From positions 5,627 to 69,626 of the forward strand of contig JAQBTR010000003.1 in assembly GCA_027624915.1 (NCBI GenBank): 64,000 nucleotides of DNA, written 5' to 3'. The notes below the pieces were generated by a model. It was not told where the DNA came from. It did not search any database and saw nothing but the letters and a program-made list of their open reading frames with translations. Position 1 is the stretch's first letter. Each line of letters starts with the position of its first letter. Source of the stretch: a bacterium. GTDB taxonomy: Bacteria > Patescibacteriota > Minisyncoccia > Ryanbacterales > GWA2-47-10b. Positions 38,413 to 64,000 of this stretch are shown here, in pieces. The position numbers and the translations under genes were made by a program.

Positions 38413-47685
<9,273 letters not shown>

Positions 47686-47860: not shown

Positions 47861-48373
47861 TCAATCAGTATAAACCTTAATATTTTTTGGTGGCCAAACT
47901 GTTATTATTGGCACACCAATGATGAATCTCTCATCAATCATTCCAGATGGAGATTCTAGTGTTGTATTGCTTACTACAAAGTATTCGTGAGCATCTAATG
48001 CTCCAATATCCTCTAGCCCAGCAATTACAGTACCAAACGCTGGGAGCTCTTTTATCTTGTAATCATCATTATTTCGAATAGAAAGAATGCCATCATTAAT
48101 AACAACACGCTCCATGGGAAGTCCTATTATTCTTCTCATATATCTATCCGTTCTGTCAGCTTGATCCCTAAATACTATGACTTCTTCTCTTCGAAATTTG
48201 CGGCTAAAATATGCTAGTCTATTCACAAGCACAAGGTCTCCAGACTCAAATTTTGGACTCATAGAACTGTCTGGAACGTAGAATGGCGTAAGTAAAAAGT
48301 ACCTAACCGGAATTGTAAGAATATAAGCAAATGAAATAGTCCAAAGTATACTTTTTGCTGTTTGCCAACTCAT
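47861..48373 (-). CDS. lepB: Signal peptidase I.
   Basis: N-terminal transmembrane helix. SMSPKF Ser box and a catalytic Lys region. 170 aa. Confidence 0.75.
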   Translation of the reverse strand: MSWQTAKSILWTISFAYILTIPVRYFLLTPFYVPDSSMSPKFESGDLVLVNRLAYFSRKFRREEVIVFRDQADRTDRYMRRIIGLPMERVVINDGILSIRNNDDYKIKELPAFGTVIAGLEDIGALDAHEYFVVSNTTLESPSGMIDERFIIGVPIITVWPPKNIKVYTD

Positions 48374-50832: not shown

Positions 50833-51691
50833 TATACTATTTTTAGGGAGCGGTGAATTTGCTGTTCCAGTGTTACAATCCCTTATTGACGAGGGATTTC
50901 CTATTGTTTCCGTTATTACTCAGCCAGACGAAAGTCCAATTCATGAGTACTGTGTGCCAAATGATATTTCATTAAGAAATTCAACGGAAGATGTGCCAGG
51001 GGCCGATATCTTTGTTATCGCGTCGTACGGTAAAATCCTTCCTGAAAAATTTCTATCTCTTCCAGAACATGGAACACTCAATGTGCACCCATCGCTACTA
51101 CCAAAATATCGTGGCCCATCCCCTATTCAGGGAGCGTTGCTTGCGGGAGAGACAGAGACTGGCGTCACAATAATGCTGACCGATGACAAAATGGACCACG
51201 GTCCAATTCTTGCACAAGAGAAATATACCATCAACTCAAGTGAAAACTACCCAATACTACGTGATAGCCTCGCTGAGCTTGGTGCAAAATTACTTATCTC
51301 AGTGCTTGAACGACTCATAAACGGTAATGTTCGTAAAACAGAGCAGGATCATGAACAGGCTACGTTTACAAAACTTATCAAAAAAGTAGATGGACGTATT
51401 GATTGGAATGCTGACGCTGATACAATCGTTAACCTTATACGTGCCTACAATCCGTGGCCAGCCGGACTTACAACATTTGCTGGTAAAAATATAAAACTCT
51501 TGAGTGCACGAATATCATCAACGACCCTACCCGCTGGAGAATTAAAACTCGATGGGGAAGAACTTATTGTCGGGTGTGGAAGTAACTCAATTGTTGTTGA
51601 AGAAATACAACCAGAAAGCAAACGTCCTATGTCGGGTGAAGCGTTCGCTCGTGGCTATCTTAAAGACTCACCACCCTATACATTTGAATAG
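50804..51691 (+). CDS. fmt: Methionyl-tRNA formyltransferase.
   Basis: NVHPSLLPKYRGPSPIQ formyltransferase motif, with the C-terminal domain. Confidence 0.9.
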   Translation: MLLETMTKPSILFLGSGEFAVPVLQSLIDEGFPIVSVITQPDESPIHEYCVPNDISLRNSTEDVPGADIFVIASYGKILPEKFLSLPEHGTLNVHPSLLPKYRGPSPIQGALLAGETETGVTIMLTDDKMDHGPILAQEKYTINSSENYPILRDSLAELGAKLLISVLERLINGNVRKTEQDHEQATFTKLIKKVDGRIDWNADADTIVNLIRAYNPWPAGLTTFAGKNIKLLSARISSTTLPAGELKLDGEELIVGCGSNSIVVEEIQPESKRPMSGEAFARGYLKDSPPYTFE

Positions 51692-51695
51692 CTCT

Positions 51696-53483
51696 CTACT
51701 GTAGAAAGTACTCTACCAAAAGAAGTGGTGCGAAAATAATATTTGCTATGATTTGAACGGCACGAGAGTGTTGTTCTTCTGGTGGTGGCTCACCTTCATA
51801 CGTTGGTTCCGGCGGGAAGTCTCCCCCATCATTCTCGCGACGTTCTTCGTATTCCTGTCGATACTCATCGTACTGTTCAGGTTGGAAGTTGTCGCCAACT
51901 GGTGGCAGCTGACCATCAAAATGAGGTTCATTAGAACGAAACCCTCCTCTCAAATCTTCAAACTGTTTTAAACCATCCAGTCTCTTTAAGTCTTCTGGTC
52001 TAAATCCCCGCTCCTCCAGCTTACGCAGTTCATCGGGTGTTGCTCTTCTTGGGTCCGGGAACTGACCCCCATCGAATAGCTCCCTATCGTTGTGATTAAA
52101 GTCTGATGGTGGAAAATCTCCTTTACCGGGAAAGTCACCAGATACTCCAGGAAAATCAAATCCACCATCAAATGGTACTCGGTCATCCTCTCCAGGAATA
52201 TGATCATCAAAATTTGGAATGTTACACTCTTGAGAATTTTGACGACAGTAGTCAAAACACTCTTGTGGACTCGTACAGCCACCAGGGCCGCTAAATCGTC
52301 CATCTTCACGATGGCCCTCTCCAGCATCATCTCCCCTAAATCTTCGTTCTAAGTCTTGAAGTTCATGGAGTTTATCGAGTCTGCGTTCAAAATCACCATC
52401 TCCACCCATATCTGACCCAGGTCTACGGAACCTATCTCTTTCACTAAACTCACGTAACATTCGCTCGGCATTCTCTTGCGTTAAACCACCATGGGTAGAT
52501 GCAAAAGCTACACACTCTTCAAAATGATCTCGATTTTCGCAGTATTTTTTACACTCTCTTTCTTCTCGACATCCACCGGGGCCACCCTCGCTTTTCATTT
52601 TACGCTCAAGTTTTAACCCAATCTCATGGTCTCTCCTTTCCTCATTAGATAATAATCCATTTCCTTGTGCAAATTCAAAACACTCTTCTCGATGTTCTGG
52701 ATCGTCACAATAACGATGGCACTCAACCCCACGACACCCACCAGGACCACCCCTACGTGACGCATCCATAAACCGACGTGCTTGCTCCACCTCTTCTCGA
52801 GGAATTAAGTTATGCTCTTCTGCAAATGTTAGACACCCATCTTCATGCCCTGATTGTTCACAATACTCACGACACTCTTTTCCTATACAACCACCTGGTC
52901 CTTTTTGAGCTCTTAACCCATTAAACTTCCGTGCCTCTACAATCTCTTCACGTGTCATAAAACCCTCTCGCTCTGCAAAAGTAATACACTCATCAAAATG
53001 TGCCTGATCTTCACAGTATGCCCGACACTCATCCTCTCCGTGACATCCACCGGGCCCCACAAAGTCTTCTCTTGATTGATGACCTCTTCGTACTCTATTA
53101 CGAATATGATCTACTTCTTCTTTTGTTATAAAACCCTGCTCAAGACCGTGATTAATACACTCATCAACATGAGATGGCCTTTCACAATATGCCTTACACT
53201 CACTTTCACTGGAACATCCACCCGGACCATTTAATCTTCGTGTGCGTTCTTCTATATGTCCTCGGACACGCTTGGCATCTTCACTATTAAGAAGTCCATT
53301 AGCTTCGGCAAAATCAATACAAATAAGTCTATTATCAGGATTGTCACAGTAGCGCTTACAGTCTTCTCTAGATTCACAGCTACCAAGTTCTGCAACCGGG
53401 AATGAAATATCTTGTGCATTAGCCACAGCTCCAAACGAAAATAAGCCTACGCTAGCAAATATATACAGTAGAAACGTACGCAT
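51696..53483 (-). CDS. Secreted cysteine-rich tandem-repeat protein of unknown function.
   Basis: Signal peptide MRTFLLYIFASVGLFSFGAVANA. About 10 tandem ~45-aa modules carry GPGGC-x3-5-EC-x2-YC-x5-6-H-x2-EC (4 Cys and 1 His per module). The protein is highly Glu/Arg-rich. The C-terminal third is acidic, low-complexity and DFP/GDF-rich, and it ends in a hydrophobic tail. Confidence 0.5.
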   Translation of the reverse strand: MRTFLLYIFASVGLFSFGAVANAQDISFPVAELGSCESREDCKRYCDNPDNRLICIDFAEANGLLNSEDAKRVRGHIEERTRRLNGPGGCSSESECKAYCERPSHVDECINHGLEQGFITKEEVDHIRNRVRRGHQSREDFVGPGGCHGEDECRAYCEDQAHFDECITFAEREGFMTREEIVEARKFNGLRAQKGPGGCIGKECREYCEQSGHEDGCLTFAEEHNLIPREEVEQARRFMDASRRGGPGGCRGVECHRYCDDPEHREECFEFAQGNGLLSNEERRDHEIGLKLERKMKSEGGPGGCREERECKKYCENRDHFEECVAFASTHGGLTQENAERMLREFSERDRFRRPGSDMGGDGDFERRLDKLHELQDLERRFRGDDAGEGHREDGRFSGPGGCTSPQECFDYCRQNSQECNIPNFDDHIPGEDDRVPFDGGFDFPGVSGDFPGKGDFPPSDFNHNDRELFDGGQFPDPRRATPDELRKLEERGFRPEDLKRLDGLKQFEDLRGGFRSNEPHFDGQLPPVGDNFQPEQYDEYRQEYEERRENDGGDFPPEPTYEGEPPPEEQHSRAVQIIANIIFAPLLLVEYFLQ

Positions 53484-53485
53484 AA

Positions 53486-53749
53486 TTATTCGAATGGATT
53501 AGTCTTGACGTCCCCATCAAATGGGTTTTGGTATCCATCCTCAAGTACGTTGTCTCCTGCGAATGGATTAACGGCATCAACCGCTGCTTCTTGTGCGGCA
53601 GCTGTCGCCTCCATGGCTGCTTTTTCCGTGCCCTGCTTTATACCCGCTTCTAGTCCCACGCCATTACCGTAGTAATATCCGCCAGTAGCACCGATTGCCA
53701 ATGCAACGATTGCAACCAAAAATGTTTTCATTCCGCCCCCTTGTTCCAT
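53486..53749 (-). CDS. Small secreted Gly/Ala-rich protein with NPF motifs.
   Basis: Signal-peptide-like MKTFLVAIVALAIGATG. Three NPF repeats. It lies 2 nt upstream of the Cys-repeat gene. Confidence 0.4.
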   Translation of the reverse strand: MEQGGGMKTFLVAIVALAIGATGGYYYGNGVGLEAGIKQGTEKAAMEATAAAQEAAVDAVNPFAGDNVLEDGYQNPFDGDVKTNPFE

Positions 53750-53902
53750 AATATATTTTTATAGATTAATAATTGCGAATGCTTACCCTTAGTATAGATA
53801 AATACTTATCTAGATTCACTGTTGATAAACAATATCCGGGGTCTGTTCACGAGCTCATGTCGAGGTAAAATTTTAGTATTTTAGCTGACAAGCCTAAATA
53901 TC

Positions 53903-54913
53903 TCACTTTTGCGGTGAGCTTGTGAATAGGCCCCTAGCTATTTCCCAATTCTCTGGCCTATCGTGCTTTGTCTTTAACCAATACCAGTACTCAACACCCC
54001 ATAGATAGAACTCATCAAATCCTGTTTTTGAGGCGTATTCTATAATCCCCTCAAACTTTTCTGGGCTAAAGGACATCTCTTGTTCACTTTGCGTCATCTG
54101 TGGGATTGGCTTGGGGCCCCAACTCTCTCCTTGAAGCTCTATCACAACCATTGGTCGCTCACCCGCAACCCACTGTGTAAGTTTATGCTTTGCCCTAAAA
54201 AAGCCTGGTGGAAGTGGGTATGTCACGTGTCCGAACGGTTCTTTGTAGATGATTCGGTACATGGTTGTACCGAAAACATCGCTACGCCTTGCTGCCCTAA
54301 ACCAAAGTGACAATTCTCCAGAATCTGTAACCAAAACCGGATGACTTGAATCAAGGATCTTTACCAAGGCGATTTCCTCCTCCAGAAACTCAACGTTAAG
54401 TGGCGGACATATACCGAAAGGTAAGAATGGCTCATTCTCTACCTGCCAATACAGAAGATTTGGTGAATCCTTATATCTCTCAACGGTGGCTGTAATATAT
54501 TTTTTAATAAGATCTTCTTGTTCGCTACGTGGTAATGATTTTGCCCACTCTGGTTCGTGACACTCTGGCCAACGAGGAACCTTTCTGCCAACTGCTAATA
54601 TCACCTCTGCACCCTCTTCTTCTGCGCGCTCAACCTGGTAGTCAAGATCACGAAAGTCATATGTGCCACGCCGAGCCTCAACCAGGCGCCAGTATACCGG
54701 CAGACGAATCTGTTTTACCCCGAGATCTGTGAGCATAGCTTCATACCCCTCCTTCCACGGAATACCAAAATCCTCCATTGAACTTTGAGAATACGTAACC
54801 CCCCACACTCTTGGCTCTAAGATTGGCGTGAGCCCTGCCATATATACCAAAACTAGGATTGATAAAAAAATCAAAAGTACAAAAAATCTAACAATTTGAA
54901 ATCGTTTTTTCAT
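53903..54913 (-). CDS. TIM-barrel glycoside hydrolase-like protein (GH5/GH42-type NEP motif) with an N-terminal transmembrane helix.
   Basis: LLYWQVENEP matches a catalytic acid/base box. Family assignment is uncertain. Confidence 0.45.
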   Translation of the reverse strand: MKKRFQIVRFFVLLIFLSILVLVYMAGLTPILEPRVWGVTYSQSSMEDFGIPWKEGYEAMLTDLGVKQIRLPVYWRLVEARRGTYDFRDLDYQVERAEEEGAEVILAVGRKVPRWPECHEPEWAKSLPRSEQEDLIKKYITATVERYKDSPNLLYWQVENEPFLPFGICPPLNVEFLEEEIALVKILDSSHPVLVTDSGELSLWFRAARRSDVFGTTMYRIIYKEPFGHVTYPLPPGFFRAKHKLTQWVAGERPMVVIELQGESWGPKPIPQMTQSEQEMSFSPEKFEGIIEYASKTGFDEFYLWGVEYWYWLKTKHDRPENWEIARGLFTSSPQK

Positions 54914-55806
54914 GAAAGAAACAATAAGTAGAGAGCAAAACTCATTGATAATGCACCCAAAACTTTTACACTAAGCGCATGCACAGAGAAATCTTCTTTT
55001 AGGACGCGTGGTGCAAAAAATGCCAAGAAAATAGAAATGATAAATACGAAGAAATATTCAAATGCAGCTAATGCATGAACAACCGAGACCACCCCACGTG
55101 ATAATGCAAAACTCACAAGAAACGCCCCTATAGCACCAATTGCCTTATTTACTAATAGTAGTGCGCTACCATGTGCCGATGGCAGGTTGGAAGACCTTAT
55201 TGTATGCCGACAACTCGGTATCAAGAATATTAATAGAGCCCCAAGAAACGACCCCATGCGCGACCAGAACAATCCATCAATAAACCCAGCGTTTAAAAAG
55301 ACATACTTTAACAAAACCAAACTTATACTTAGTAGCGTTGCCGCTGCCAGAACAATCCAAACTAGGGAATGATAAAAAACGTTTTGATGCTGTCTCTCCC
55401 ACACCAAGAAGAACCCTCCAAGAATTAGAAAAAATACTGCCTGCAAGCCAAATCTTCCTATATCCTCTCCGAGAGTATATAGAGCCAAAATAAGGGTAAA
55501 AAATGGTGCGATACTAACAAATAGTGGCACTACACGGGATGAGTCATAGTGACGAAGTCCGAGATACAAAAAATAAAGATGGCCCAAAAAGAAAATACCA
55601 GATATAAGTCCTACAAGTATTATTCGTGGCTCTACATCGAAGCTCAAAAAGGGCAAAAATAACAGAACAAGACCTGATAGTAAACCACCGTAGAATGTGT
55701 ACATAATGGGCTGTTTTATTGGGCCCGCTAGTATAACCTTATCAATTATCTTTGCACTTCCTGCAAAAAAGTAAGCAACAAGAGCAGCAACTATCCAAGT
55801 TTCCAT
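54910..55806 (-). CDS. EamA/DMT-family transporter (10 transmembrane helices).
   Basis: Duplicated 5-helix hydrophobic topology. 298 aa. Confidence 0.5.
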   Translation of the reverse strand: METWIVAALVAYFFAGSAKIIDKVILAGPIKQPIMYTFYGGLLSGLVLLFLPFLSFDVEPRIILVGLISGIFFLGHLYFLYLGLRHYDSSRVVPLFVSIAPFFTLILALYTLGEDIGRFGLQAVFFLILGGFFLVWERQHQNVFYHSLVWIVLAAATLLSISLVLLKYVFLNAGFIDGLFWSRMGSFLGALLIFLIPSCRHTIRSSNLPSAHGSALLLVNKAIGAIGAFLVSFALSRGVVSVVHALAAFEYFFVFIISIFLAFFAPRVLKEDFSVHALSVKVLGALSMSFALYLLFLS

Positions 55807-55929
55807 GTATTTAATTTTAACAGCTTATGCACACTATATGCAGGGATAATTAACATGACTTGACTTTTATATATTATATGATATACTATTCTCAAGTTGA
55901 ACCTTGGATGATAGGAATAGGAGGAAAGT

Positions 55930-56127
55930 GTGGAAGAATGCATTGATTGTCAGGCGTGGGCCCTGCCTTGTCCTCATAATGATGTATGCGAAGACTGCTG
56001 TCTCATATGCCGCAAAGTAGATGACAAGGGCTGTAATCGCGAACGCGACACCTTCTTTCGAGACGATCCCTTTGCGGAACTAGAGGCGTACATAGATGCA
56101 TCCCAAACCTGTAGTGAGAGAAGGTGA
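55930..56127 (+). CDS. Small Cys-rich protein.
   Basis: CIDCQAWALPCPHNDVCEDCCLICRK has 8 Cys within 30 aa. Confidence 0.3.
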   Translation: MEECIDCQAWALPCPHNDVCEDCCLICRKVDDKGCNRERDTFFRDDPFAELEAYIDASQTCSERR

Positions 56128-56347
56128 TCCAATGCCAAACCTAACAGAAGTACTCAAGGTGGATCGAGAACGCGGCCTCGTCGAGCTCTCGATCCCCGGC
56201 ACAGGAATTTTTGCTCTCACCCTACGACGTGGTCGTCCCTTCATCATACGTGAGCAGTACTACACATCAGACGCTCGTCTCTCCAGTGAAGAGCGCCGAG
56301 CAATGTACGCACGTGCCGGCGCAATACTCCGGCCAAAAAAGAAATAA
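56096..56347 (+). CDS. Hypothetical protein.
   Basis: ORF followed by a strong terminator. Confidence 0.3.
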   Translation: MHPKPVVREGDPMPNLTEVLKVDRERGLVELSIPGTGIFALTLRRGRPFIIREQYYTSDARLSSEERRAMYARAGAILRPKKK

Positions 56348-56357
56348 AAAGCAAAAA

Positions 56358-56390
56358 GGGGCCTCCTAGGAGGCCCCTGTAGTATTTTTT
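56358..56390 (+). terminator. Rho-independent terminator.
   Basis: GGGGCCTCC-ta-GGAGGCCCC followed by a T-run. Confidence 0.7.
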
Positions 56391-56672
56391 AACGGCTCAC
56401 CAACGGCTCATAATATGAGCCGTTAAATATTTTGACCAAAATTGGGCTGGCTTAAAGGATGGTTTCCCATCCTCGGCGCAAGATTAAACCAACCCAATTT
56501 TGATAAAAATAAGAGAGTTCTAATAACATCAATTCGCCTGTATCCTTATTAGCATTTTTAAAAACTAAGTCAACACCTTCCAAAACTTTTTATCCACAAT
56601 TAATATTAGAAAATAAAAACAGCATTAGGGCAACCATAATGATATTTTTATTCCATTTTTAAAACCAAGATT

Positions 56673-57875
56673 TTAAAAAAGAGATTCTCGAATCATGGTG
56701 AGCGCTCTTTCAACCCAAAACTTCCCCGCTTGAGGACCACCTCCACATGTCCCATCTGATTCACCTGGTGGCTTTATCCATAAAAAGGCATCAATACCTA
56801 CAGCTCCTGTCTCTCTTGTTGGGAGCGCACCAATTGCTACACCAGGAGTGTTGCACCATTCGGTATCTTCTATCGCCCGGCCATTTCTACTTGTATCAAT
56901 AATGAAGTGCTTACCCCCCAAGAGGCCTGAAACTGTCTGTCCGTAAGAAATCTCATCATTTAGTTGCTGATAGTTTGCAACATTGGTAAAAAAGCCGTCA
57001 GCTCTGTCTATTCCGCTTCTTTTTAAAGCTGAAGCCATAATAGCTGGTGAGCGCCAATTACCATGACCGCCATCCAAATAGACTCGAGCATTCTTGTTGT
57101 GATCTTTTATATACTCAACTGCTGATTTAAGTTCGCTTGCTCGAACCGCCTGATCCTCGGAAGAAAGGTTTGGAAATAAGCCAATGGCGTCCGGTTCAAG
57201 TACAATCCAAACAGAATTATCGCCAATTCCTTCAGAGATACGCTGTATCCAATCTGAGTACTTTACTGTTTTACCAACACCACTCCACCACGTTAGTGTA
57301 GTGTGGTCTGGTATATTATAAAGAACCAATATGGGGATTTTTTTTGCATCAGCCGCTTGAGTGACCATAGTCTTCGCACGTTCTGAAACAAAATTAAGAT
57401 CATCTCCAATAATCCACACCCCTTGAGGAATACAAGCTATACGTTCAAGGAGTTTTGCATCAGCATCATTACCCTCTTGTTTGAGACGGTCAAGTTCACG
57501 TGCTGCCTGAGATTTTGGATCACGAAAAAAACTTGACGACTCTAAAAAGCTAGCACAATCAAATGCTATTTTTTTAGGTGGAGGTAGTGAAGGCGGGACA
57601 ATCACTGAAGGTGGTAATACTGTTACCGGAGGGAGTGTGTCTATAATAATTTCATCCCCATTATCAGTTATTACTTCATTGAGCTCGTTATTTTCTTTTT
57701 CTGATAAATCATCGCCCGGTAAGATATGAATTTCAACGTCAGGACCGTGGAGGTCGACACTAACCTTTTCAAAACTCAAAACCAAAAACAAGCCTAAGAG
57801 CACAGAAAAAAATAGACCCGTCCAAAGGATGACGGTGCTTAACAAAACAGATTTTTTTGTCTTTTTTTGCGCCAT
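56673..57875 (-). CDS. Glycoside hydrolase family 6-like protein, membrane-anchored.
   Basis: N-terminal transmembrane helix and a Pro-rich linker. FLWIKPPGESDGTCGGGPQAGKFW resembles the GH6 C-terminal signature (WVKPGGE.DGTSD...PQAG.WF). Confidence 0.55.
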   Translation of the reverse strand: MAQKKTKKSVLLSTVILWTGLFFSVLLGLFLVLSFEKVSVDLHGPDVEIHILPGDDLSEKENNELNEVITDNGDEIIIDTLPPVTVLPPSVIVPPSLPPPKKIAFDCASFLESSSFFRDPKSQAARELDRLKQEGNDADAKLLERIACIPQGVWIIGDDLNFVSERAKTMVTQAADAKKIPILVLYNIPDHTTLTWWSGVGKTVKYSDWIQRISEGIGDNSVWIVLEPDAIGLFPNLSSEDQAVRASELKSAVEYIKDHNKNARVYLDGGHGNWRSPAIMASALKRSGIDRADGFFTNVANYQQLNDEISYGQTVSGLLGGKHFIIDTSRNGRAIEDTEWCNTPGVAIGALPTRETGAVGIDAFLWIKPPGESDGTCGGGPQAGKFWVERALTMIRESLF

Positions 57876-57884
57876 TATCTAAGT

Positions 57885-58883
57885 CTACTCAATCTCTCTA
57901 ATTAAATAGTTATCAAATTCGACATCCATAAAATCTGTACGGATGCCAGCATGTCCCTCTTTTAGGAATGGAGCACCTGCTTGGGAACCATCGTCTATGG
58001 CTTCTGCCACAAGCTTCCAATCACCCTTGTTATATTCATCTAAGTATAACTGAATGAGAACCGTATTATCTTCTTGGGTCTGGACAACACTTTTAAGCCC
58101 AAGCCACTGTTTATGGGGCAAAAGATTTGGGTGCGTATCTCTATTATATTCACCCTCAAAATATGGTTGATAATCTAATGTATAATATTCCCCTCCTATC
58201 TTCTTTTTAATGACCGCTGCTCCATCCACACGAATTCCAGCATAGTAGAGATTGTCCCCATCTTGGTATCTATTAAACGAAAGAATTCCATTAGACTCTG
58301 CTCGATTAGTACTTTGAGATAGGTTGTCTTTTGTAATCGAAAAATCAAAAGACTGAATAAAGGTCTTCCAGGTATCATGGGTTACAAGTCTAAATAAATT
58401 TTGCGGGTAACGACCTTCATCGGTATCATCTGGATCATTACTTAGATATAACTTACGCCAAGATGAATTGTCTTCAAGGGGGCCCTGAATGGTTCTAAAG
58501 ACTCCCCGTTCAATGACTAAAAAAGCACCTGAGTTCAACCACCAATAAGGACTTGAACTGTTTTTAGGCAAACCTGCCTCCTGTAAAACACCGTCCACAT
58601 TAGCCGAAAAAGAGAAAAATCCAGACACTTCTTTTTGAAAGACTTCTTGAGAAGATGTACTAGCTACTAGATTATTTACTGGAGTAGGAAGAACGACCTT
58701 AGAATGATTTCTGTTCATCTTAGAGAAAACTCTTTCCGCAATACTTTGTTCTTCTTTCTCATTTAAACTTAAAATAGAATTGGGTTGGCTCTTAAAAAAT
58801 ATGTATTTCCAGGAAACAAAACCGTTCCACACCAGAAGTAGGGGCAAGAGAAAAACGAATATAATTTGTACGTTTTTTTTCAC
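57885..58883 (-). CDS. Membrane-anchored hypothetical protein, possibly a ConA-like/LamG beta-sandwich.
   Basis: N-terminal transmembrane helix. The C-terminal GIRTDFMDVEFDNY pattern is a weak pointer. Confidence 0.3.
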   Translation of the reverse strand: MKKNVQIIFVFLLPLLLVWNGFVSWKYIFFKSQPNSILSLNEKEEQSIAERVFSKMNRNHSKVVLPTPVNNLVASTSSQEVFQKEVSGFFSFSANVDGVLQEAGLPKNSSSPYWWLNSGAFLVIERGVFRTIQGPLEDNSSWRKLYLSNDPDDTDEGRYPQNLFRLVTHDTWKTFIQSFDFSITKDNLSQSTNRAESNGILSFNRYQDGDNLYYAGIRVDGAAVIKKKIGGEYYTLDYQPYFEGEYNRDTHPNLLPHKQWLGLKSVVQTQEDNTVLIQLYLDEYNKGDWKLVAEAIDDGSQAGAPFLKEGHAGIRTDFMDVEFDNYLIREIE

Positions 58884-58905
58884 CTTTAGAAAGATATATT
58901 AATAA

Positions 58906-60528
58906 TTAATTTTGAGAACCCACAGCTATTATAGACAAGTCTTTTATAATAACCTCGCTCTTGCCAGGAACAGGGTCCCAGACCTTGAACCCAATACCTC
59001 CTCGACTCAATTTTGGATGCACATACTCAGTTGACACCAACATTTTCCCATCAATAAAACACTGAGTTTTATCGCCCGTTGTTATCATTTCAAAAACTGC
59101 AGCGTCCCAAGAGAACACATCTTTAAGCTTAAGATCAACGATCTCATATTTATGACCGTCAACATATTCATCCAAATGAATATACTCCCCCGTGACACTA
59201 CATGACAGATAGTTATTACTATCTGTATATCGTCCCGCTAAAGAAAAGGATGTCCCCCTGATCCAGTCAACAGTTACAGTAAGATGATAGTCACTTAAAT
59301 TTCTTGCGCCATCAAGAAATACTGCGGCCCCTGTTTTATCTTCATCTGCGCTTAAGGTCAACTCAGAGTCCTTTATGCTAAAAGTGCTCCACGCCCTAAC
59401 CCAATCTTCTTCCGAAAGAAGATCATCCATATAAATTGGTAACTGATGAGATTGGCCAGAGTTTAATATGTTTAATAAATCATTATCGTTCCAATTAGGG
59501 TCAACCCCTATACGTTTGATCAAAAAAGTATTATCGCCAAAGAAGTTCTGTGTAAATCCAGCACTTGGGAACGTCTGAAAGAATGCCATAGAGTAATTAT
59601 CACCAACAGAAGAAAGTAAAACCCGTCGAGCATCTACATAGTTTGTATAACCTTGAGCAAAATCTCCATAAGGAAACGCGAAGACGTCAGAATTAATACC
59701 CAAAACACGATTTAATTGTTCTTTTGTTTTTGCAAGGTCCTTAGCTATACGTTCTTTATATTCCTCATTGGTTTCAACTCGTCCCAAAGATTCTATCCAA
59801 AGCTTATTAGAATAATAATGACCTTCTTCCTTATCCTTAGAAGTCGGAATAAAAATATGTCCATCATAAGCATGAGCTTCTACTTCCCATCGACCGCTAT
59901 GGATCATTAAGCGTAATTCGTCTGAATTCAAATAGTAACCATTGATATTGTTCTCGGCCAATGACCGTCCTGCAATAATAAAAGTGACGGCCTGATAATC
60001 AAGAGCTCGAAGTATGGGATCCACAGGATAATAACTAGATTTTGCCCCATCATCAAACGTCAACAAAAAGGATTTTTTTGGGAGTTTTTGATCACCCCTC
60101 ATGAAAGCAGTGAAATCCTCTAAATTAATAGTTTTCCACCCCTCCTTCTTTAGACGGAACATTTGTGATTCAAACATATCCCTTGTCACATTTTTTCCAT
60201 CTGGCTCATCAAGAATTCCGTGATACAAAAGAACTGGTATAGATTCGGCAAACCCCGAGGCAGAGGCAGACACAACCTCTGAATTCTTCTGAAAAATAGT
60301 ACCAATACTACCAAGAAGGCCTCTTTCACTGTAGCCACGCTTTGTCAGATAAAAATAATAAGAAACATCGCCCTTAAAGCTCAATAGCTCTCTCTTGACC
60401 ATCTGTTCTGGATATCCTCCCAAAAGAGAGAAGTAAGACACACCTAAGAAGAGAGCCATAAAAACAAAACTCATTTTTAGAACTTTGGTTTTTGAAAAAT
60501 CGAGATAAGTCATTATCTTGTCCCCCAT
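58906..60528 (-). CDS. Polysaccharide deacetylase (NodB homology) with an N-terminal transmembrane helix and a C-terminal beta-sandwich.
   Basis: LLTFDDGAKSSYYPVDPIL (TFDDG motif) and the downstream His motif region. Confidence 0.65.
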   Translation of the reverse strand: MGDKIMTYLDFSKTKVLKMSFVFMALFLGVSYFSLLGGYPEQMVKRELLSFKGDVSYYFYLTKRGYSERGLLGSIGTIFQKNSEVVSASASGFAESIPVLLYHGILDEPDGKNVTRDMFESQMFRLKKEGWKTINLEDFTAFMRGDQKLPKKSFLLTFDDGAKSSYYPVDPILRALDYQAVTFIIAGRSLAENNINGYYLNSDELRLMIHSGRWEVEAHAYDGHIFIPTSKDKEEGHYYSNKLWIESLGRVETNEEYKERIAKDLAKTKEQLNRVLGINSDVFAFPYGDFAQGYTNYVDARRVLLSSVGDNYSMAFFQTFPSAGFTQNFFGDNTFLIKRIGVDPNWNDNDLLNILNSGQSHQLPIYMDDLLSEEDWVRAWSTFSIKDSELTLSADEDKTGAAVFLDGARNLSDYHLTVTVDWIRGTSFSLAGRYTDSNNYLSCSVTGEYIHLDEYVDGHKYEIVDLKLKDVFSWDAAVFEMITTGDKTQCFIDGKMLVSTEYVHPKLSRGGIGFKVWDPVPGKSEVIIKDLSIIAVGSQN

Positions 60529-61835
60529 CTAGAGTCTCTAATAGTAAACATCGCCCAGGGCAACTGCCACATCAACATAACCGTATAAAACCAAAAAGTC
60601 AGGACAGACAAAAGCCACGCGCGCGGTCCAACTTGCGTGCGATAATAGATACCATGAAGTAACAACATGAGAAACAACCCGGTTAAATAAGCAAGTGGGA
60701 AAATACCTGTCAAATAGGGGTGCCATAACATAGCCCTTATAAAAACAATTGGTGACGTTATAGCTAGAAAGACATAAGCATAGTAAGAAATAGCAGCAAA
60801 AATATTTTTACGCCACATAAAAGCACTAGCTATGATAGTCTCTCTAACCCAGGACTTTTTCCATCTTTGCTGCTGTTTAATATATTTACCTATCGTGTGC
60901 GGCACAACGGTGTACGCCTTAGCTTCAGGTGAATAAACAGCTTCATATTTTTGAATAATAAAATTAGTCAAACTCCGATCATCACCAAAAGTACATTTAC
61001 TCCCCAAGAATGTTTGATTCAACCAAGGATCAAGAAACTCAAGCAGATATGACCGACGATATGCAGAACAACACCCAGGACAACAAGTAACATTCCCAAA
61101 AACAGATTCTGCCGCCTTATATATACTAAAAGCAATATAATACCGTGTGGCCTGCATTTGCGTCAAAAGATTCGTCTCTCTATTAAATACATCTGTATGA
61201 CCCGAAACTGCTCCAATTCTTGGATTTGAGAAGTACTTGACCAAATGCTTAACACAATCTGGTTCAATAAAGCTGTCTGAATCGATAAATATAACAATAT
61301 CATGCTTTGCTCTTTTTACGCCCTCAGCCATCCCATCTCTCTTCCCTCGATTTATCTTCCAATTTACTACTGTCATGGGAATGGTGCCCTTTACCTCTTT
61401 TTGAATTTTTAACATTTCTCCATGTGTGTTATCGGTAGATCCATCATTTATGGCAATAATTTCGATTCTGTCTTTCGGATAATTTACATGTACAAAGCGT
61501 CTTACCGTCTCAGCAATATTGTCTTCTTCATTTTTTGCCGGTACAACAAAAGTGATCGATGGCTGATATGACTCATCGTGCTCAATAGATCTATGGAAAT
61601 GAGAAAGAAAAAATCTAGAAAGAATATAGATAAAAATAACCAAACTGTAGATCGTAAAAAACATTGTTCCGCCACGAAAATTGGTCGTCGAAACTTTAAA
61701 TAAAAAAATTACATAGAGAACCAAAAAAAAGACAAGCCAAAAAGCAACGTCCCTGAATAGGATGCCTTTGTTTTTGACTCTATTGATAAAAGAAAAATAA
61801 CTTTCTTTTATCTCTTGATAAGATTTATTTTTCAC
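60513..61835 (-). CDS. Family-2 processive beta-glycosyltransferase (cellulose/chitin/PNAG synthase-like).
   Basis: GT-A motifs INDGSTDNT and DSDS (DxD), Q(Q)QRW (QxxRW), and transmembrane helices at both ends. Confidence 0.75.
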   Translation of the reverse strand: MKNKSYQEIKESYFSFINRVKNKGILFRDVAFWLVFFLVLYVIFLFKVSTTNFRGGTMFFTIYSLVIFIYILSRFFLSHFHRSIEHDESYQPSITFVVPAKNEEDNIAETVRRFVHVNYPKDRIEIIAINDGSTDNTHGEMLKIQKEVKGTIPMTVVNWKINRGKRDGMAEGVKRAKHDIVIFIDSDSFIEPDCVKHLVKYFSNPRIGAVSGHTDVFNRETNLLTQMQATRYYIAFSIYKAAESVFGNVTCCPGCCSAYRRSYLLEFLDPWLNQTFLGSKCTFGDDRSLTNFIIQKYEAVYSPEAKAYTVVPHTIGKYIKQQQRWKKSWVRETIIASAFMWRKNIFAAISYYAYVFLAITSPIVFIRAMLWHPYLTGIFPLAYLTGLFLMLLLHGIYYRTQVGPRAWLLSVLTFWFYTVMLMWQLPWAMFTIRDSRWGTR

Positions 61836-61882
61836 TTTTTTAGTTACGAATTCTAATCTAGCACTCCAGTATTCTTCATCAC

Positions 61883-64000
61883 CTAGAGTGTCACATCAAA
61901 TGTGGTTGCGTCGTTAACCCACTCATAGAGTCCTGTCCAGTTGAGTCGAATTAAACCAACCGCAACACGATATGTTCCTGGGCCTGGAGCCACCCACTCA
62001 AAATCAAAGGTTCTTTCTTCTCCTATCTGAAACGTATCGCCGTTTCGTATGAGCTGAGCAACGAGAACATCAGAAAAATCGTAAACCTCCATATTGATTA
62101 CAACATGCCCTGGCTCATCACCTAGGTTGTGAACAGTCATTGAAATCATGTGTGAACCATCACCTTGTAACTCTGACGTCGTAACAACGTGTGTTGGTGC
62201 GAATAAATCAGTTAAAACCAAAGGACCACCGTTTGACCATGATGGGTCCTGATCGTCGCCACCATCCGTTGAGCCGAATTTTCCGTGGTGACCACTATTA
62301 CTCTTATCTAAGATGTCTTGACCGAATCCCTCAATAAATTGCCAGTATTTTATGAGCCCAATACGGTCGTCATCTGCTAAGACAGATCCAATATTACCCG
62401 CGATCTGAACATCAGTCCTTACAACATTCCAGACGCGCACATCATCTAGAGTTCCGTCAAATGCTTTTATAGCAAGAATTGCGGGCTCTGCGCCGATCCA
62501 CACAGGATCAAGGTTTCGATCGATAACACCTATTTTAGCTACCGAGTCAACAAGAATACCATCTTGGTAAAGATTCATGAATGAACCGTCATACGACACC
62601 GCCGCATGTGTTTGTGCGCCTGGCACAACTGTTCCACCCACAAGTAATGAAGGTACTCCATCTGTACTTAATATAAACTCAAGAGATCCTGCTGCTGTGA
62701 CACCCAATGACCACGATGTACCTGTAAGATGCTTAGAGATAAGTTTTTGATCTACACCTATGGCATCAGCAGTAAAGAGCGCCTCAATAGTAAATGAGTC
62801 TTCTTCAATATCCCATACGCCAACATCTACATAATCATCAACCCCATCAAAAATAATAGATTGACTTGAGTATACAATTGGCTCCCCCTCACAAACACCC
62901 TGACCGAGTACTGGATAAGTAAATGTTGAGGTGTGATCTCCCCATGAATTTTTAGTCCATCCAGAAGGACCCGAATTTTCGAATGAAGAATTGGCAATCA
63001 AATTAATTGAAGACTCTAATGATGACAAAGATGCACGATCAATCACCAATGAACCATCCTCCTCGATGAGATGGTATACCGTTGCTTCTAGTGCGTTTGG
63101 TGGCATTTCAAACTCAAATGAACTGAGCTGCCAATCTGCTGATGACGGCAAAGATCCAATGAGCATGTACACCGTTCCAGAATCAGTAATTACTTCGGCA
63201 ACAATCTTACTTGAAATATCAGAGATATAATAATCCTGGTAGGTATACATTGCGGAACCAACAACCGATACTGGACTGTGTCGCCACTTTGCATCTCCAC
63301 CTACATAGCTTGAAATCTCAACGTGAGCACCACGAATCGTACATGCTTCAATTTTTTCATATCCAAACTGAACTAGAGCCGCATATCCATTTTCATAATA
63401 TTCAACTCTGATTTCATGAACACCTGGTGATAGAACAATCTCGGCACTGTATGTTGTTGCTGCCTGATCATGCCACTCATTAATAATCGCAACATCGTCA
63501 ACAAACACGCGCACTCCATCATCTGCGGTAATCGTAAATCGATATGTTCCGTCTTCAAATTCATCTTGTCTAATCCACTGTGCTGAGAAGTTATCTGGCT
63601 GAATGAGTGGGTCTGGAGAGCCACCGTCACCCCAATCAAAATCAATAGATGCATCATCTCTAACTAAAATTGGTGCACCAGCTAAATCCTTATTAGTAAA
63701 GTACCTTGAACAGAAGGTCTCTCTACCAAGCACACCTGGAACTGGATGTGTAAATACAGATGTATTTGAACCCCATGAGTTTTGTATCCATCCAGAAGGA
63801 CCGGGTGTTTCAAATGAAGCGTTTAGTATCAAGTTGGTATTAGTACCAGTCTCGACAAAACGATATCCATCTACAGTTAATTCTCCAACACTGTTTACCA
63901 AGTGAAATACTGTGGCTGCAGTAACATCGGCTGGAATAACAAATAATGCTTCGTTCTTAGTCCAATCAATAGCCGCTGGTCGAGTGCCAAGCCACATATA
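61883..64000 (-). CDS. Large secreted PA14 + LamG/ConA-like domain protein. Partial: the N-terminus lies beyond the window end.
   Basis: The PA14-like segment FTNKDLAGAPI...GTYRFTITADDGVRVFVDDVAIINEW. The LamG-like segment DGVDDYVDVG...LDDVRVWN. The ORF is open to the window edge. Confidence 0.55.
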   Translation of the reverse strand, partial: YMWLGTRPAAIDWTKNEALFVIPADVTAATVFHLVNSVGELTVDGYRFVETGTNTNLILNASFETPGPSGWIQNSWGSNTSVFTHPVPGVLGRETFCSRYFTNKDLAGAPILVRDDASIDFDWGDGGSPDPLIQPDNFSAQWIRQDEFEDGTYRFTITADDGVRVFVDDVAIINEWHDQAATTYSAEIVLSPGVHEIRVEYYENGYAALVQFGYEKIEACTIRGAHVEISSYVGGDAKWRHSPVSVVGSAMYTYQDYYISDISSKIVAEVITDSGTVYMLIGSLPSSADWQLSSFEFEMPPNALEATVYHLIEEDGSLVIDRASLSSLESSINLIANSSFENSGPSGWTKNSWGDHTSTFTYPVLGQGVCEGEPIVYSSQSIIFDGVDDYVDVGVWDIEEDSFTIEALFTADAIGVDQKLISKHLTGTSWSLGVTAAGSLEFILSTDGVPSLLVGGTVVPGAQTHAAVSYDGSFMNLYQDGILVDSVAKIGVIDRNLDPVWIGAEPAILAIKAFDGTLDDVRVWNVVRTDVQIAGNIGSVLADDDRIGLIKYWQFIEGFGQDILDKSNSGHHGKFGSTDGGDDQDPSWSNGGPLVLTDLFAPTHVVTTSELQGDGSHMISMTVHNLGDEPGHVVINMEVYDFSDVLVAQLIRNGDTFQIGEERTFDFEWVAPGPGTYRVAVGLIRLNWTGLYEWVNDATTFDVTL

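What the first reader, a model, noticed from the sequence alone, without database searches (positions are those of the whole stretch)
51696..53749. Secreted protein built from about ten tandem C4H modules (GPGGC..EC..YC..H..EC), paired with a small NPF-motif secreted protein
The 595-aa protein has a signal peptide followed by a near-regular array of roughly 45-aa modules. Each module carries four Cys and one His at fixed spacing and has extreme Glu/Arg content. It ends in an acidic DFP/GDF-rich low-complexity tail. The module resembles no domain I can name; it could be a metal-binding or disulfide-knot repeat. A co-oriented small secreted protein with three NPF motifs sits 2 nt upstream. Together they look like a dedicated extracellular two-gene unit of unknown function.
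Basis: seen in the sequence. Interest (0 to 1): 0.75.

Follow-up and report, generated by a model that had tools for sequence, protein, structure and literature searches.

The report
Exported cysteine-stapled helical repeat protein pair
Two adjacent genes in a Patescibacteria (CPR) genome encode an exported protein made of seven four-cysteine helical modules that match no known domain or fold, plus a tiny membrane protein with an NPF-motif tail; the two genes sit next to each other in many related species, so they probably form an undescribed cell-surface complex.

Summary
The genes are real. ORF A (51696-53483, minus strand, 595 aa) and ORF B (53486-53749, most likely starting at 53731, 81 aa) lie 2 nt apart. 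Some details in the finding are off. ORF A has 7 modules, not about 10. The period is 51-57 aa, not 45. The "His" is present in 5 of 7 modules here and is H 60% / N 34% across the family.

The family has 1,815 representative clusters, all seen in Patescibacteria (Parcubacteria-type lineages). All four Cys are kept in 1958 of 1960 modules.

The partner has a TM helix followed by typically four NPF motifs at 8-residue spacing, ending in NPF plus one residue. It sits directly upstream in at least 70 of 76 evaluable loci. No other neighbour is conserved.

Best reading: an exported helical repeat array with probably two disulfides per module, held at the cell surface with its small partner. Its function is inferred to be structural or adhesive. 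A metal-binding role is not excluded.

It is a real, uncharacterised, lineage-specific two-gene unit of moderate-to-high interest.

The parts
53750..53779 (-). Promoter-like site (TTCGCA-18 nt-TATATT) immediately upstream of the small gene
   Evidence: consensus scan. This is weak evidence: 7 sites were found against 4.9 expected in the region.
53486..53749 (-). Partner gene. The ORF is 87 aa from the first ATG. The likely real start is the ATG at 53731 (81 aa), preceded by the Shine-Dalgarno sequence AAGGGGG. The protein has a short N-tail, a TM/signal-anchor helix, a Gly-rich and charged linker, and an NPF-motif tail that ends in NPFE at the C-terminus.
   Evidence: The public gene call P0121 is 81 aa. 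Family alignment A4. The family profile finds 268 proteins of 69-105 aa.
53675..53725 (-). Hydrophobic TM/signal-anchor segment of the partner (TFLVAIVALAIGATGGY)
   Evidence: Family median Kyte-Doolittle hydropathy is 2.4 over 17 aa. L11, G14, G18 and G22 are at least 90% conserved.
53492..53569 (-). NPF-motif tail of the partner. NPF motifs lie at 53561-53569, 53519-53527 and 53492-53500. The second of the four family motif slots is degenerate here (DNVLE).
   Evidence: In the family there are four motifs in 44 of 63 proteins, and the spacing is 8 aa in 127 of 163 cases.
51696..53483 (-). Repeat-protein gene, 595 aa plus stop codon
   Evidence: It is identical to the NCBI MAG protein O2794_01555.
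53415..53483 (-). Signal peptide, aa 1-23 (MRTFLLYIFASVGLFSFGAVANA|QD)
   Evidence: Read directly from the sequence (n, h and AxA c-regions). 216 of 243 family members have an N-terminal hydrophobic region. No SignalP-type tool was available.
52224..53414 (-). Array of seven four-Cys helical modules (aa 24-420). It includes the conserved mature N-terminal motif DISFPVAELGSC. A long helix (aa 362-383) sits between modules 6 and 7. Cys cores lie at 53319-53378, 53157-53216, 52986-53045, 52833-52889, 52680-52736, 52512-52571 and 52224-52277.
   Evidence: In the AF2 model most 10-residue blocks across aa 31-420 have mean pLDDT 84-96 (about 91 overall), with dips at aa 131-140 (66), 351-360 (63) and 381-400 (74-77). 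The di-module model has pLDDT 92.9.
51774..52223 (-). Low-complexity acidic tail rich in Pro, Gly and Phe (aa 421-570), mostly predicted disordered
   Evidence: pLDDT is below 50 for aa 426-474 and 506-533. Family tails have a median length of 209 aa, with P 14% and G 12%.
51699..51773 (-). C-terminal hydrophobic/amphipathic helix (aa 571-595, ...AVQIIANIIFAPLLLVEYFLQ)
   Evidence: AF2 predicts a helix at aa 571-594. The element is conserved family-wide, even when extra domains are inserted before it.

Best explanation
This is a lineage-specific two-gene operon of Parcubacteria-type Patescibacteria. It most likely encodes a cell-envelope complex.

Gene A is exported by the Sec pathway (shown only as a signal-peptide-like N-terminus). 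It folds into a continuous all-alpha array of about 52-aa three-helix modules. Each module is probably locked by two disulfides among its four invariant Cys (inferred). After the array comes a long disordered Pro/Gly/acidic spacer. The protein ends in a short amphipathic helix that probably lies on the membrane or on a partner protein (inferred).

Gene B is translationally coupled to A. It is a small bitopic membrane protein. Its tail carries up to four NPF turns at 8-residue spacing and ends in a conserved NPF-x C-terminus.

I propose that this tail faces outwards and docks onto the helical array, in the way alpha-solenoids bind short linear motifs. This would tether the array at the cell surface. 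There it would act as a protease-resistant structural or adhesive scaffold. In some species the scaffold also displays binding or inhibitor domains (Kazal, LamG).

Shown here: the architecture, its conservation, the gene pairing, and the lack of any known homolog or fold. Inferred: the disulfides, the partner's topology, the NPF-array contact, and the scaffold/adhesion role.
For: Architecture:
- gene layout and module structure.
- confident all-alpha three-helix modules, with high pLDDT across the linker in the di-module model (pTM 0.68).

Constraint on the Cys:
- 1562 of 1579 and 1958 of 1960 modules keep all four Cys.
- The H/N position is not a fixed ligand.
- Glu precedes C2 and C4 in the consensus. 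By inference this is unfavourable for an anionic Zn(Cys)4 site.

Extracellular, oxidising context:
- Homologs carry Kazal, LamG and other Cys-rich domains between the array and the C-terminal helix.
- CPR genomes are enriched in an MdbA-like oxidoreductase plus VKOR (PMC6744442).

Gene pairing:
- The partner cluster is found in 63 of 79 loci by BLAST clustering, with a median gap of -8 nt and the same strand.
- It is present in at least 70 of 76 evaluable loci by rule plus inspection.
- priA, def, fmt and the glycoside hydrolase are conserved in 3 loci or fewer.
- The reverse look-up held in 3 of 3 cases.

Partner regularity:
- NP[FLY] motifs are spaced 8 aa apart in 127 of 163 cases, and the protein ends in NPF plus one residue in 50 of 63.
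- Motif number correlates with module number (Spearman rho 0.52, p=3e-5).
- NPF is not enriched in the repeat proteins themselves.

Other:
- The last four canonical modules are positionally orthologous between species. This fits a defined structure rather than interchangeable beads.
- The weak Foldseek resemblance is only to peptide-binding alpha-solenoids such as importin-beta and TPR proteins. It is not significant.
Against: - No direct evidence exists for any contact between A and B. A complex prediction could not be run.
- The partner's topology is ambiguous. Flanking K/R counts are 1.6 on the N side against 1.8 on the C side, so the NPF tail could be cytoplasmic. Alternatively the hydrophobic segment could be a cleaved signal peptide.
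- Apart from Cys, Gly and core hydrophobic residues, few residues are conserved in the modules. No conserved NPF-binding pocket is evident.
- The motif-module correlation is not corrected for phylogeny.
- The C-terminal helix is too short and too polar to be a TM anchor in most members, so the mode of surface retention is uncertain.
- No disulfide-forming gene lies in this window.
Confidence: 0.42

Rival explanations
1. The array is an extracellular metal-binding or metal-buffering protein. Each module's four Cys (with or without the His) would coordinate a metal ion such as Zn, Cu(I), Fe or Ni, giving about seven sites per protein. The partner would anchor or regulate it.
For: - The four Cys have rigid spacing and are essentially invariant.
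- A His sits one helical turn before C4 in 60% of modules.
- C2-x3-C3 lies on one helix face, as in the Cys-lined helical copper storage proteins (own knowledge).
- Many source habitats are anoxic groundwater, where thiols could stay reduced (record titles).
Against: - The His alternates with Asn, which is not a metal ligand, in 34% of modules.
- Glu directly precedes C2 and C4.
- There are no zinc-knuckle or ribbon beta-hairpins; the modules are all-alpha.
- No hit to any metal-binding Pfam family was found.
- Kazal domains, which need disulfides, occur in the same polypeptides.
- CPR bacteria encode extracytoplasmic disulfide-forming enzymes.
Confidence: 0.17
2. A and B are functionally linked but do not bind through the NPF motifs. 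The NPF tail would be cytoplasmic (N-out/C-in), or the partner would be a cleaved, secreted peptide. B would then act as a dedicated membrane receptor, insertion factor or signalling element, contacting A only through its TM/juxtamembrane glycine-zipper region or A's C-terminal amphipathic helix.
For: - The charge balance around the TM segment is ambiguous.
- The TM segment and the GxxxG-rich juxtamembrane segment are conserved.
- A has a conserved C-terminal amphipathic helix with no assigned partner.
- No conserved surface pocket is evident in the modules.
Against: - The most conserved feature of B is the NPF tail and its free C-terminus.
- Motif number tracks module number.
- Tight translational coupling with an exported protein fits a stoichiometric complex on the same side of the membrane.
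Confidence: 0.22
3. The protein is a polyprotein precursor. The array would be cut at the GPGG linkers into several disulfide-rich helical peptides of about 50 aa, with defensin-, toxin- or signal-like roles.
For: - The modules are regular and linked by GPGG, often preceded by basic residues.
- Sub-threshold Pfam hits to defensin-like and late-nodulin families were seen.
- A trypsin-like peptidase lies downstream in 10 loci.
Against: - AF2 models the linker with high confidence as part of a continuous structure. In the di-module model, 10-residue block pLDDT means are 88-96 throughout.
- The C-terminal modules are positionally orthologous between species.
- The specific N-terminal motif, the tail and the C-terminal helix are conserved.
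- The Pfam hits are far below their cut-offs.
- The peptidase neighbour is present in only a minority of loci (10 of 79), all among the best-scoring matches (L001-L041), and this window has no GDSGG motif.
Confidence: 0.06
4. The feature is an artefact or non-functional ORF: the periodicity would come from misassembly, or the genes would not be real.
For: - The sequence comes from a metagenome-assembled genome.
- One related ENA contig (L083) carries a frameshifted copy.
Against: - The DNA copies are only 60-78% identical and TRF finds nothing.
- There are 1,815 representative clusters from independent assemblies.
- 79 species-level loci show the same architecture.
- The fold prediction is confident.
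Confidence: 0.01

Closest known systems
Helicobacter cysteine-rich proteins (Hcp family; Sel1-like repeat solenoids)
   Same: Both are secreted bacterial all-alpha tandem-repeat proteins whose repeats are stapled by disulfides. Both have a solenoid-like overall shape suited to binding ligands or peptides. This comparison rests on my own knowledge of the family.
CHCH-domain proteins (twin CX9C, e.g. NDUFB7) and alpha-hairpinins (twin CX3C)
   Same: Both have short helices cross-linked by two disulfides. NDUFB7 is the best, though non-significant, PDB profile hit (E=0.6).
   Different: The Cys pattern differs: C-x5-C-x3-C-x8-C here, against twin CX9C or twin CX3C. The known proteins are single domains in the mitochondrial intermembrane space or plant seed peptides, not tandem arrays. 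The hit is statistically insignificant.
Peptide-binding alpha-solenoids (importin-beta with FxFG repeats, TPR with EEVD C-termini) and the EH-domain/NPF system of eukaryotic endocytosis
   Same: In each case a helical repeat or helical-pair domain recognises short repeated linear motifs, or a free C-terminus, on a disordered tail. The top (non-significant) Foldseek hits are importin-beta and TPR proteins. The partner's motif is literally NPF.
Kazal-type serine protease inhibitor domain (PF00050/PF07648)
   Same: It is a Cys-rich extracellular domain. True Kazal domains occur in the C-terminal tails of some family members.
   Different: The window protein has no Kazal domain. The C4 module is all-alpha with 4 Cys. 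Kazal is a six-Cys alpha/beta domain with a different Cys pattern.
Cys-lined helical copper storage proteins (Csp1/Csp3)
   Same: Both have helical proteins with CX3C-type Cys on helix faces, and Csp1 is exported. This comparison rests on my own knowledge.
   Different: Csp proteins are single four-helix bundles with 13-18 Cys lining the core, not tandem 4-Cys modules. No sequence or fold match was obtained.

Membership tests
Zinc ribbon / zinc-knuckle domains | Two CxxC-type knuckles on beta-hairpins that coordinate Zn | tested here: not met
   The Cys spacing is C-x5-C-x3-C-x8-C, with no CxxC. AF2 predicts all-alpha modules with no strands.
Kazal-type inhibitor (PF00050/PF07648) | Six-Cys Kazal signature detected by the Pfam HMM at or above the gathering score | tested here: not met
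   The window protein gives no Kazal hit even at E<=10. Kazal domains occur only as extra tail domains in some homologs.
Sel1-like / TPR repeat solenoids (including Helicobacter Hcp) | Two-helix repeats of 34-36 aa matching the Sel1 or TPR profile HMMs | tested here: not met
   No Sel1 or TPR Pfam hit was found in the window protein or in 37 members. The repeat here is about 52 aa with three helices. Foldseek hits to TPR proteins have E>2.
CHCH domain (twin CX9C) | Two CX9C motifs on antiparallel helices forming two disulfides | tested here: not met
   The spacings are x5/x3/x8. The NDUFB7 profile hit has E=0.6 and aligns only 2 of the 4 Cys.
Any curated protein family (Pfam-A, NCBIfam, PHROGs, PADLOC) | Score at or above the curated cut-off | tested here: not met
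   The best hit was Nodulin_late at 17.6 bits against a cut-off of 30.4.
[not shown]
   AFDB50 could not be searched because the library was unavailable.
Sec-exported protein with cleavable signal peptide | An n-region with a positive charge, a hydrophobic h-region, and an AxA cleavage site | tested here: met
   MR + TFLLYIFASVGLFSFGAV + ANA|QD. 216 of 243 members have an N-terminal h-region followed by the conserved mature motif FDIxFPIxELGxC. No dedicated predictor was available.
New family defined here: GPGGC four-Cys helical repeat protein with NPF-tail partner | (i) At least three C-x4/5-C-x3-C-x8-C modules. (ii) A terminal x6 module, then a Pro-rich tail and an amphipathic C-terminus. 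(iii) An upstream co-oriented protein of 69-105 aa with a TM segment and NPF motifs. | tested here: met
   The window protein scores E=2e-107 against the di-module profile. The partner scores E=2e-18 against the partner profile.

The most novel reading that the evidence does not exclude
The pair would be a previously unknown extracellular recognition system based on short linear motifs. A new disulfide-stapled three-helix solenoid fold would act as the receptor for an octad-spaced NPF-repeat tail on a tiny membrane anchor. Together they would build a defining surface structure of Parcubacteria-type CPR cells, mediating envelope organisation or attachment to hosts. It would be a bacterial, extracytoplasmic counterpart of eukaryotic NPF/EH or FG/importin-type interactions, evolved independently.
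Probability: 0.2. Interest if true: 0.8.

Novelty: new variant of a known kind. Interest (0 to 1): 0.6.

Why it matters
Parcubacteria-type Patescibacteria are abundant, mostly uncultured, ultra-small bacteria thought to live attached to other cells. Their surface biology is largely unknown, and most of their lineage-specific proteins are unannotated.

This two-gene unit stands out for three reasons:
- The family is sizeable, with 1,815 representative clusters.
- Both of its parts are under very strong constraint.
- It lacks any sequence or structural relative.

It therefore defines a new domain family and a testable protein-protein pairing. If the NPF tail does dock on the array, it would give a handle on how these cells build or decorate their envelope. 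It would also provide a compact, disulfide-stabilised helical repeat scaffold of possible use in protein engineering.

If the modules bind metal instead, the protein would be a new type of extracellular multi-site metal buffer.

Tried and rejected
Profile libraries
- Pfam, NCBIfam, PHROGs and PADLOC scans gave nothing above cut-off for either protein, for 37 members or for 9 long members.

Structure searches
- PDB sequence searches with the single protein and with the profile found only non-significant hits: a hydrogenase at E=1.9 and NDUFB7 at E=0.6.
- AFDB50 was unavailable.

Literature
- Searches for 'GPGGC', for Patescibacteria with cysteine-rich/secreted/repeat, and for Kazal with CPR found no description of this family.

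Retrieving related loci and partners
- The search for related loci failed with the full-length alignment because it was too variable. It worked with the module 5-6 sub-alignment.
- A single-sequence search with the partner found only the partner itself. A profile was needed.

Ideas tested and not supported
- Inferring disulfide connectivity from paired Cys loss: there were too few exceptions. One module lost C1 and C2 together and one lost C3.
- Rosetta-stone fusions of the NPF tail to the repeat protein: none found.
- A link between Kazal-bearing members and the neighbouring trypsin-like peptidase: none, 0 of 6.
- A third conserved operon gene: none. SecDF occurs in 17 loci and a PD-(D/E)XK protein in 17, out of 79 loci.
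- Thioredoxin-fold CxxC genes in the window: none in real frames.
- Assembly artefact: rejected.
Full report
**1. The observation**

The window holds a 595-aa ORF at 51696-53483 (-). Two nucleotides upstream (TAA-TT-ATG) lies a co-oriented 87-aa ORF at 53486-53749 (-).

The large protein begins with a signal-peptide-like segment: MR, then an 18-residue hydrophobic stretch, then ANA|QD. It contains 28 Cys arranged as seven modules with spacing C-x5/4-C-x3-C-x8-C; the last module has x6. Six modules are introduced by an exact GPGGC, and the first by ELGSC. The spacings from one C1 to the next are 54, 57, 52, 51, 55 and 98 aa.

So the finding's "about ten modules of about 45 aa" is wrong in number and period. 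The regular four-Cys module itself is real. The His four residues before C4 is present in five of the seven modules. Composition (E 13.4%, R 10.6%, G 11.1%, D 8.2%) and the acidic DFP/GDF tail are as described.

Two things were missed:
- A C-terminal hydrophobic helix (aa 571-595).
- The start of the small ORF. It is probably the second ATG (53731), because AAGGGGG sits just upstream of it. This gives 81 aa, which matches the public gene call.

The periodicity is not an assembly artefact. Tandem Repeats Finder reports nothing, and the DNA copies are only 60-78% identical.

**2. What the large protein is**

No curated family matches it. This holds for Pfam-A, NCBIfam, PHROGs and PADLOC. Scanning 37 homologs and nine unusually long homologs gave the same result, apart from accessory domains. 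PDB sequence searches with the protein and with a di-module profile gave only non-significant hits; the best was the CHCH protein NDUFB7 at E=0.6.

AlphaFold2 with a 37-sequence alignment gave a confident model. Most 10-residue blocks across aa 31-420 have mean pLDDT 84-96 (about 91 overall). Dips occur at aa 131-140, 351-360 and 381-400. The model shows:
- Every module has a tight turn at GPGG followed by three helices.
- H1 carries C2 and C3. H2 carries the H/N position and C4. H3 is the charged "EEAxxARKF" helix.
- The tail is disordered.
- The last 24 residues form a helix.

A di-module modelled with 65 sequences reached pLDDT 92.9 and pTM 0.68, with high confidence across the linker.

Neither model has a significant structural neighbour:
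- Foldseek against PDB gave a best E of 0.39. The hits were generic alpha-solenoids such as importin-beta and TPR proteins, with TM-scores of about 0.1.
- BFVD gave nothing.
- AFDB50 was not available.

**3. The family**

The indexed search found at least 838 homologs. Essentially all are unnamed proteins from Patescibacteria/Parcubacteria MAGs. The exhaustive profile search over 1.84 billion representatives found 1,815 clusters at E<=1e-3 and 1,010 at E<=1e-30.

I retrieved 79 loci from species-representative genomes. They come from Sung-, Kaiser-, Azam-, Wildermuth-, Colwell-, Ryan-, Campbell-, Yanofsky-, Jorgensen-, Portnoy- and Uhrbacteria, among others. Many loci (about 42 of 79) are labelled "Saccharibacteria" and two "Gammaproteobacteria". 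These labels sit on third-party bulk MAG records and may be generic; I could not verify them.

Members have 2-11 modules, most often 7-9.

Across 1,572 modules the Cys spacing is rigid: x5/x3/x8 in 69%, x4/x3/x8 in 22%, and the terminal x5/x3/x6 type in 8%. The residue at the "His" position is H in 60%, N in 34% and R in 4%. All four Cys are present in 1562 of 1579 modules, and in 1958 of 1960 in an enlarged set. The few exceptions are mostly truncated alignments.

The architecture is conserved end to end:
- a signal peptide;
- a nearly invariant mature N-terminal motif, (S)PFDIxFPIxELGxC;
- the module array;
- a long helix;
- a terminal short module;
- a Pro/Gly/Glu/Gln-rich tail, median 209 aa;
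- a short amphipathic helix, often ending in Arg.

That last helix is too short and too polar to be a transmembrane segment in most members. The longest stretch free of D, E, K, R, N, Q, H and P in the last 30 residues has a median length of 7 aa.

Paralogous modules within this protein are 38% identical on average. The last four canonical modules find their best matches (52-58% identity) at the same positions, counted from the end, in other species. The array is therefore positionally specialised and is not a string of interchangeable beads.

Some members insert extracellular-type domains between the array and the C-terminal helix. These include Kazal inhibitor domains, a LamG lectin domain and other Cys-rich repeats.

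**4. The partner and the operon**

I clustered all ORFs of the 79 loci. The only conserved neighbour is a small protein immediately upstream on the same strand. It is found in 63 of 79 loci, with a median gap of -8 nt. By a rule-based search plus inspection of the failures, which were mostly start-codon artefacts, it is present in at least 70 of 76 evaluable loci.

The neighbours in this window are conserved in three loci or fewer. These are priA, def, fmt, a GH5/42-like hydrolase and an EamA transporter. SecDF follows in 17 loci and a trypsin-like peptidase in 10 loci, all of the latter among the best-scoring matches. The peptidase does not co-occur with Kazal-bearing members (0 of 6).

The partner family has these features:
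- a short N-tail;
- a conserved hydrophobic helix, ALxxGLGGGYYYG;
- a Gly-rich and then charged helical linker;
- a tail of NP[F/L/Y] motifs.

There are four motifs in 44 of 63 proteins. The spacing is exactly 8 residues in 127 of 163 cases. The protein ends in NPF plus one residue in 50 of 63. In this window the second motif slot is degenerate.

A profile of the partner finds 268 proteins. All are 69-105 aa, from Patescibacteria, and unannotated or mislabelled "FliL". Starting from three such proteins, the gene directly downstream was each time a 4-8-module family member. NPF is not enriched in the repeat proteins, and no fusions exist. Motif number rises with module number (Spearman rho 0.52, p=3e-5, n=59). 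This is not corrected for phylogeny.

**5. Mechanism**

What is shown: an exported-looking, all-alpha, four-Cys tandem-module protein and a small hydrophobic-helix/NPF-tail protein form a strictly conserved, translationally coupled pair confined to one bacterial lineage.

What I infer:

(a) The Cys form two disulfides per module rather than a metal site.
- The H position freely alternates with Asn.
- Glu precedes two of the Cys.
- The modules are helical, without zinc knuckles.
- Disulfide-dependent Kazal domains share the polypeptide.
- CPR genomes are enriched in an MdbA-like oxidoreductase and VKOR (PMC6744442).

(b) The partner is a signal-anchored membrane protein, because its hydrophobic segment is conserved in sequence. 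The NPF tail probably faces outwards, but the charge balance around the helix is ambiguous.

(c) The NPF turns and the free C-terminus are ligands for the helical array. This would tether the array near the membrane. The Pro-rich tail and amphipathic helix would provide a second attachment.

(d) The role is structural, protective or adhesive at the cell surface. In some species it also presents lectin or protease-inhibitor domains.

I give the whole chain about 0.4. The purely descriptive part, a new exported Cys-stapled helical-repeat family with an obligate NPF-tail partner, I hold at above 0.9.

Rivals:
- a multi-site metal-binding protein (0.17);
- a functional link without NPF-array contact, either because the tail is cytoplasmic or because the partner is a cleaved peptide (0.22);
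- a polyprotein precursor of small Cys-rich peptides (0.06);
- an artefact (0.01).

**6. Comparison with known systems**

In how it would work, it is closest to two things:
- disulfide-stapled secreted alpha-repeat proteins such as the Helicobacter Hcp/Sel1-like family;
- peptide-binding solenoids and the NPF/EH system.

In membership, every family I tested failed on a defining feature. This covers zinc ribbon, Kazal, Sel1/TPR and CHCH, and more broadly any Pfam/NCBIfam family and any PDB fold.

I therefore file it as a new domain family and a new gene pairing within the broad known kind "secreted disulfide-rich tandem-repeat surface proteins". No paper in the searchable library describes it.

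**7. Verdict**

It is not explained by any known family. Its function remains inferred. Interest is 0.6. The decisive next steps are cheap: complex prediction, Cys geometry in the existing models, topology prediction, and disulfide/metal and peptide-binding assays.

Noticed in passing
window 38413-47646 (-): A giant 3,077-aa ORF with no Pfam hit at E<=1e-4 lies about 4 kb from the finding. Signal peptidase I (47861-48373) sits just upstream of it on the same strand. It may be another large orphan surface protein.
   Followed up: partly
window 53903-63997 (-): Directly upstream of the two-gene unit, on the same strand, is a glycan/envelope gene cluster. It contains a GH5/42-like hydrolase, an EamA transporter, GH6, a polysaccharide deacetylase, a GT2 (chitin/cellulose-synthase-like) and a PA14+LamG lectin protein. 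This neighbourhood is not conserved in other species.
   Followed up: partly
window 55930-56127 (+): A small Cys-rich ORF (65 aa, MEECIDCQAWALPCPHNDVCEDCCLICRKVDDKGC...) lies on the opposite strand in the gap between the EamA and GH6 genes. An overlapping 83-aa ORF follows at 56096-56347. It is unclear whether either is a real gene.
   Followed up: no
window 51691-51696: The stop codons of fmt (+, ends 51691) and the repeat gene (-, ends 51696) are only 4 nt apart. No intrinsic-terminator-like site was found for the repeat gene.
   Followed up: partly
window 52001-54000: This bin has the most extreme GC skew in the window (-0.281). The likely cause is the G-rich coding strand (Glu, Gly and Arg codons) of the repeat gene on the minus strand.
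   Followed up: no
L001, L004, L007, L010, L012, L013, L015-L017, L041 (downstream of the repeat gene): In these ten loci a trypsin-like peptidase (Pfam Trypsin_2) with an N-terminal hydrophobic segment lies downstream of the repeat gene, 61 to about 1,150 nt away (within about 140 nt in five of the ten). SecDF follows 2-3 kb downstream in seven of these ten loci (17 of 79 loci overall). None of these ten repeat proteins carries a Kazal domain.
   Followed up: yes
L083 4286-6207 versus L082 4286-6175: The same partner protein occurs on two ENA contigs. The downstream repeat gene is intact on one contig and broken by many frameshifts and stops on the other. This could be an assembly or consensus error in a repeat-rich gene, or a pseudogene.
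   Followed up: partly
P0122, P0230, P0231 (partner family); P0030 (repeat family): Automatic JGI names appear to be misannotations caused by composition. Partner proteins are called 'flagellar basal body-associated protein FliL'. One repeat protein is called 'YutE (UPF0331/DUF86)'.
   Followed up: no
P0245 (1431 aa), residues about 700-1400: This long family member carries a second, different Cys-rich repeat (CPSGQYWNGTSCVSS / CPSGQYWYVPPSGGAGYCQ units) after a Kazal domain, and still ends with the family's C-terminal helix. The repeat has no Pfam match.
   Followed up: partly
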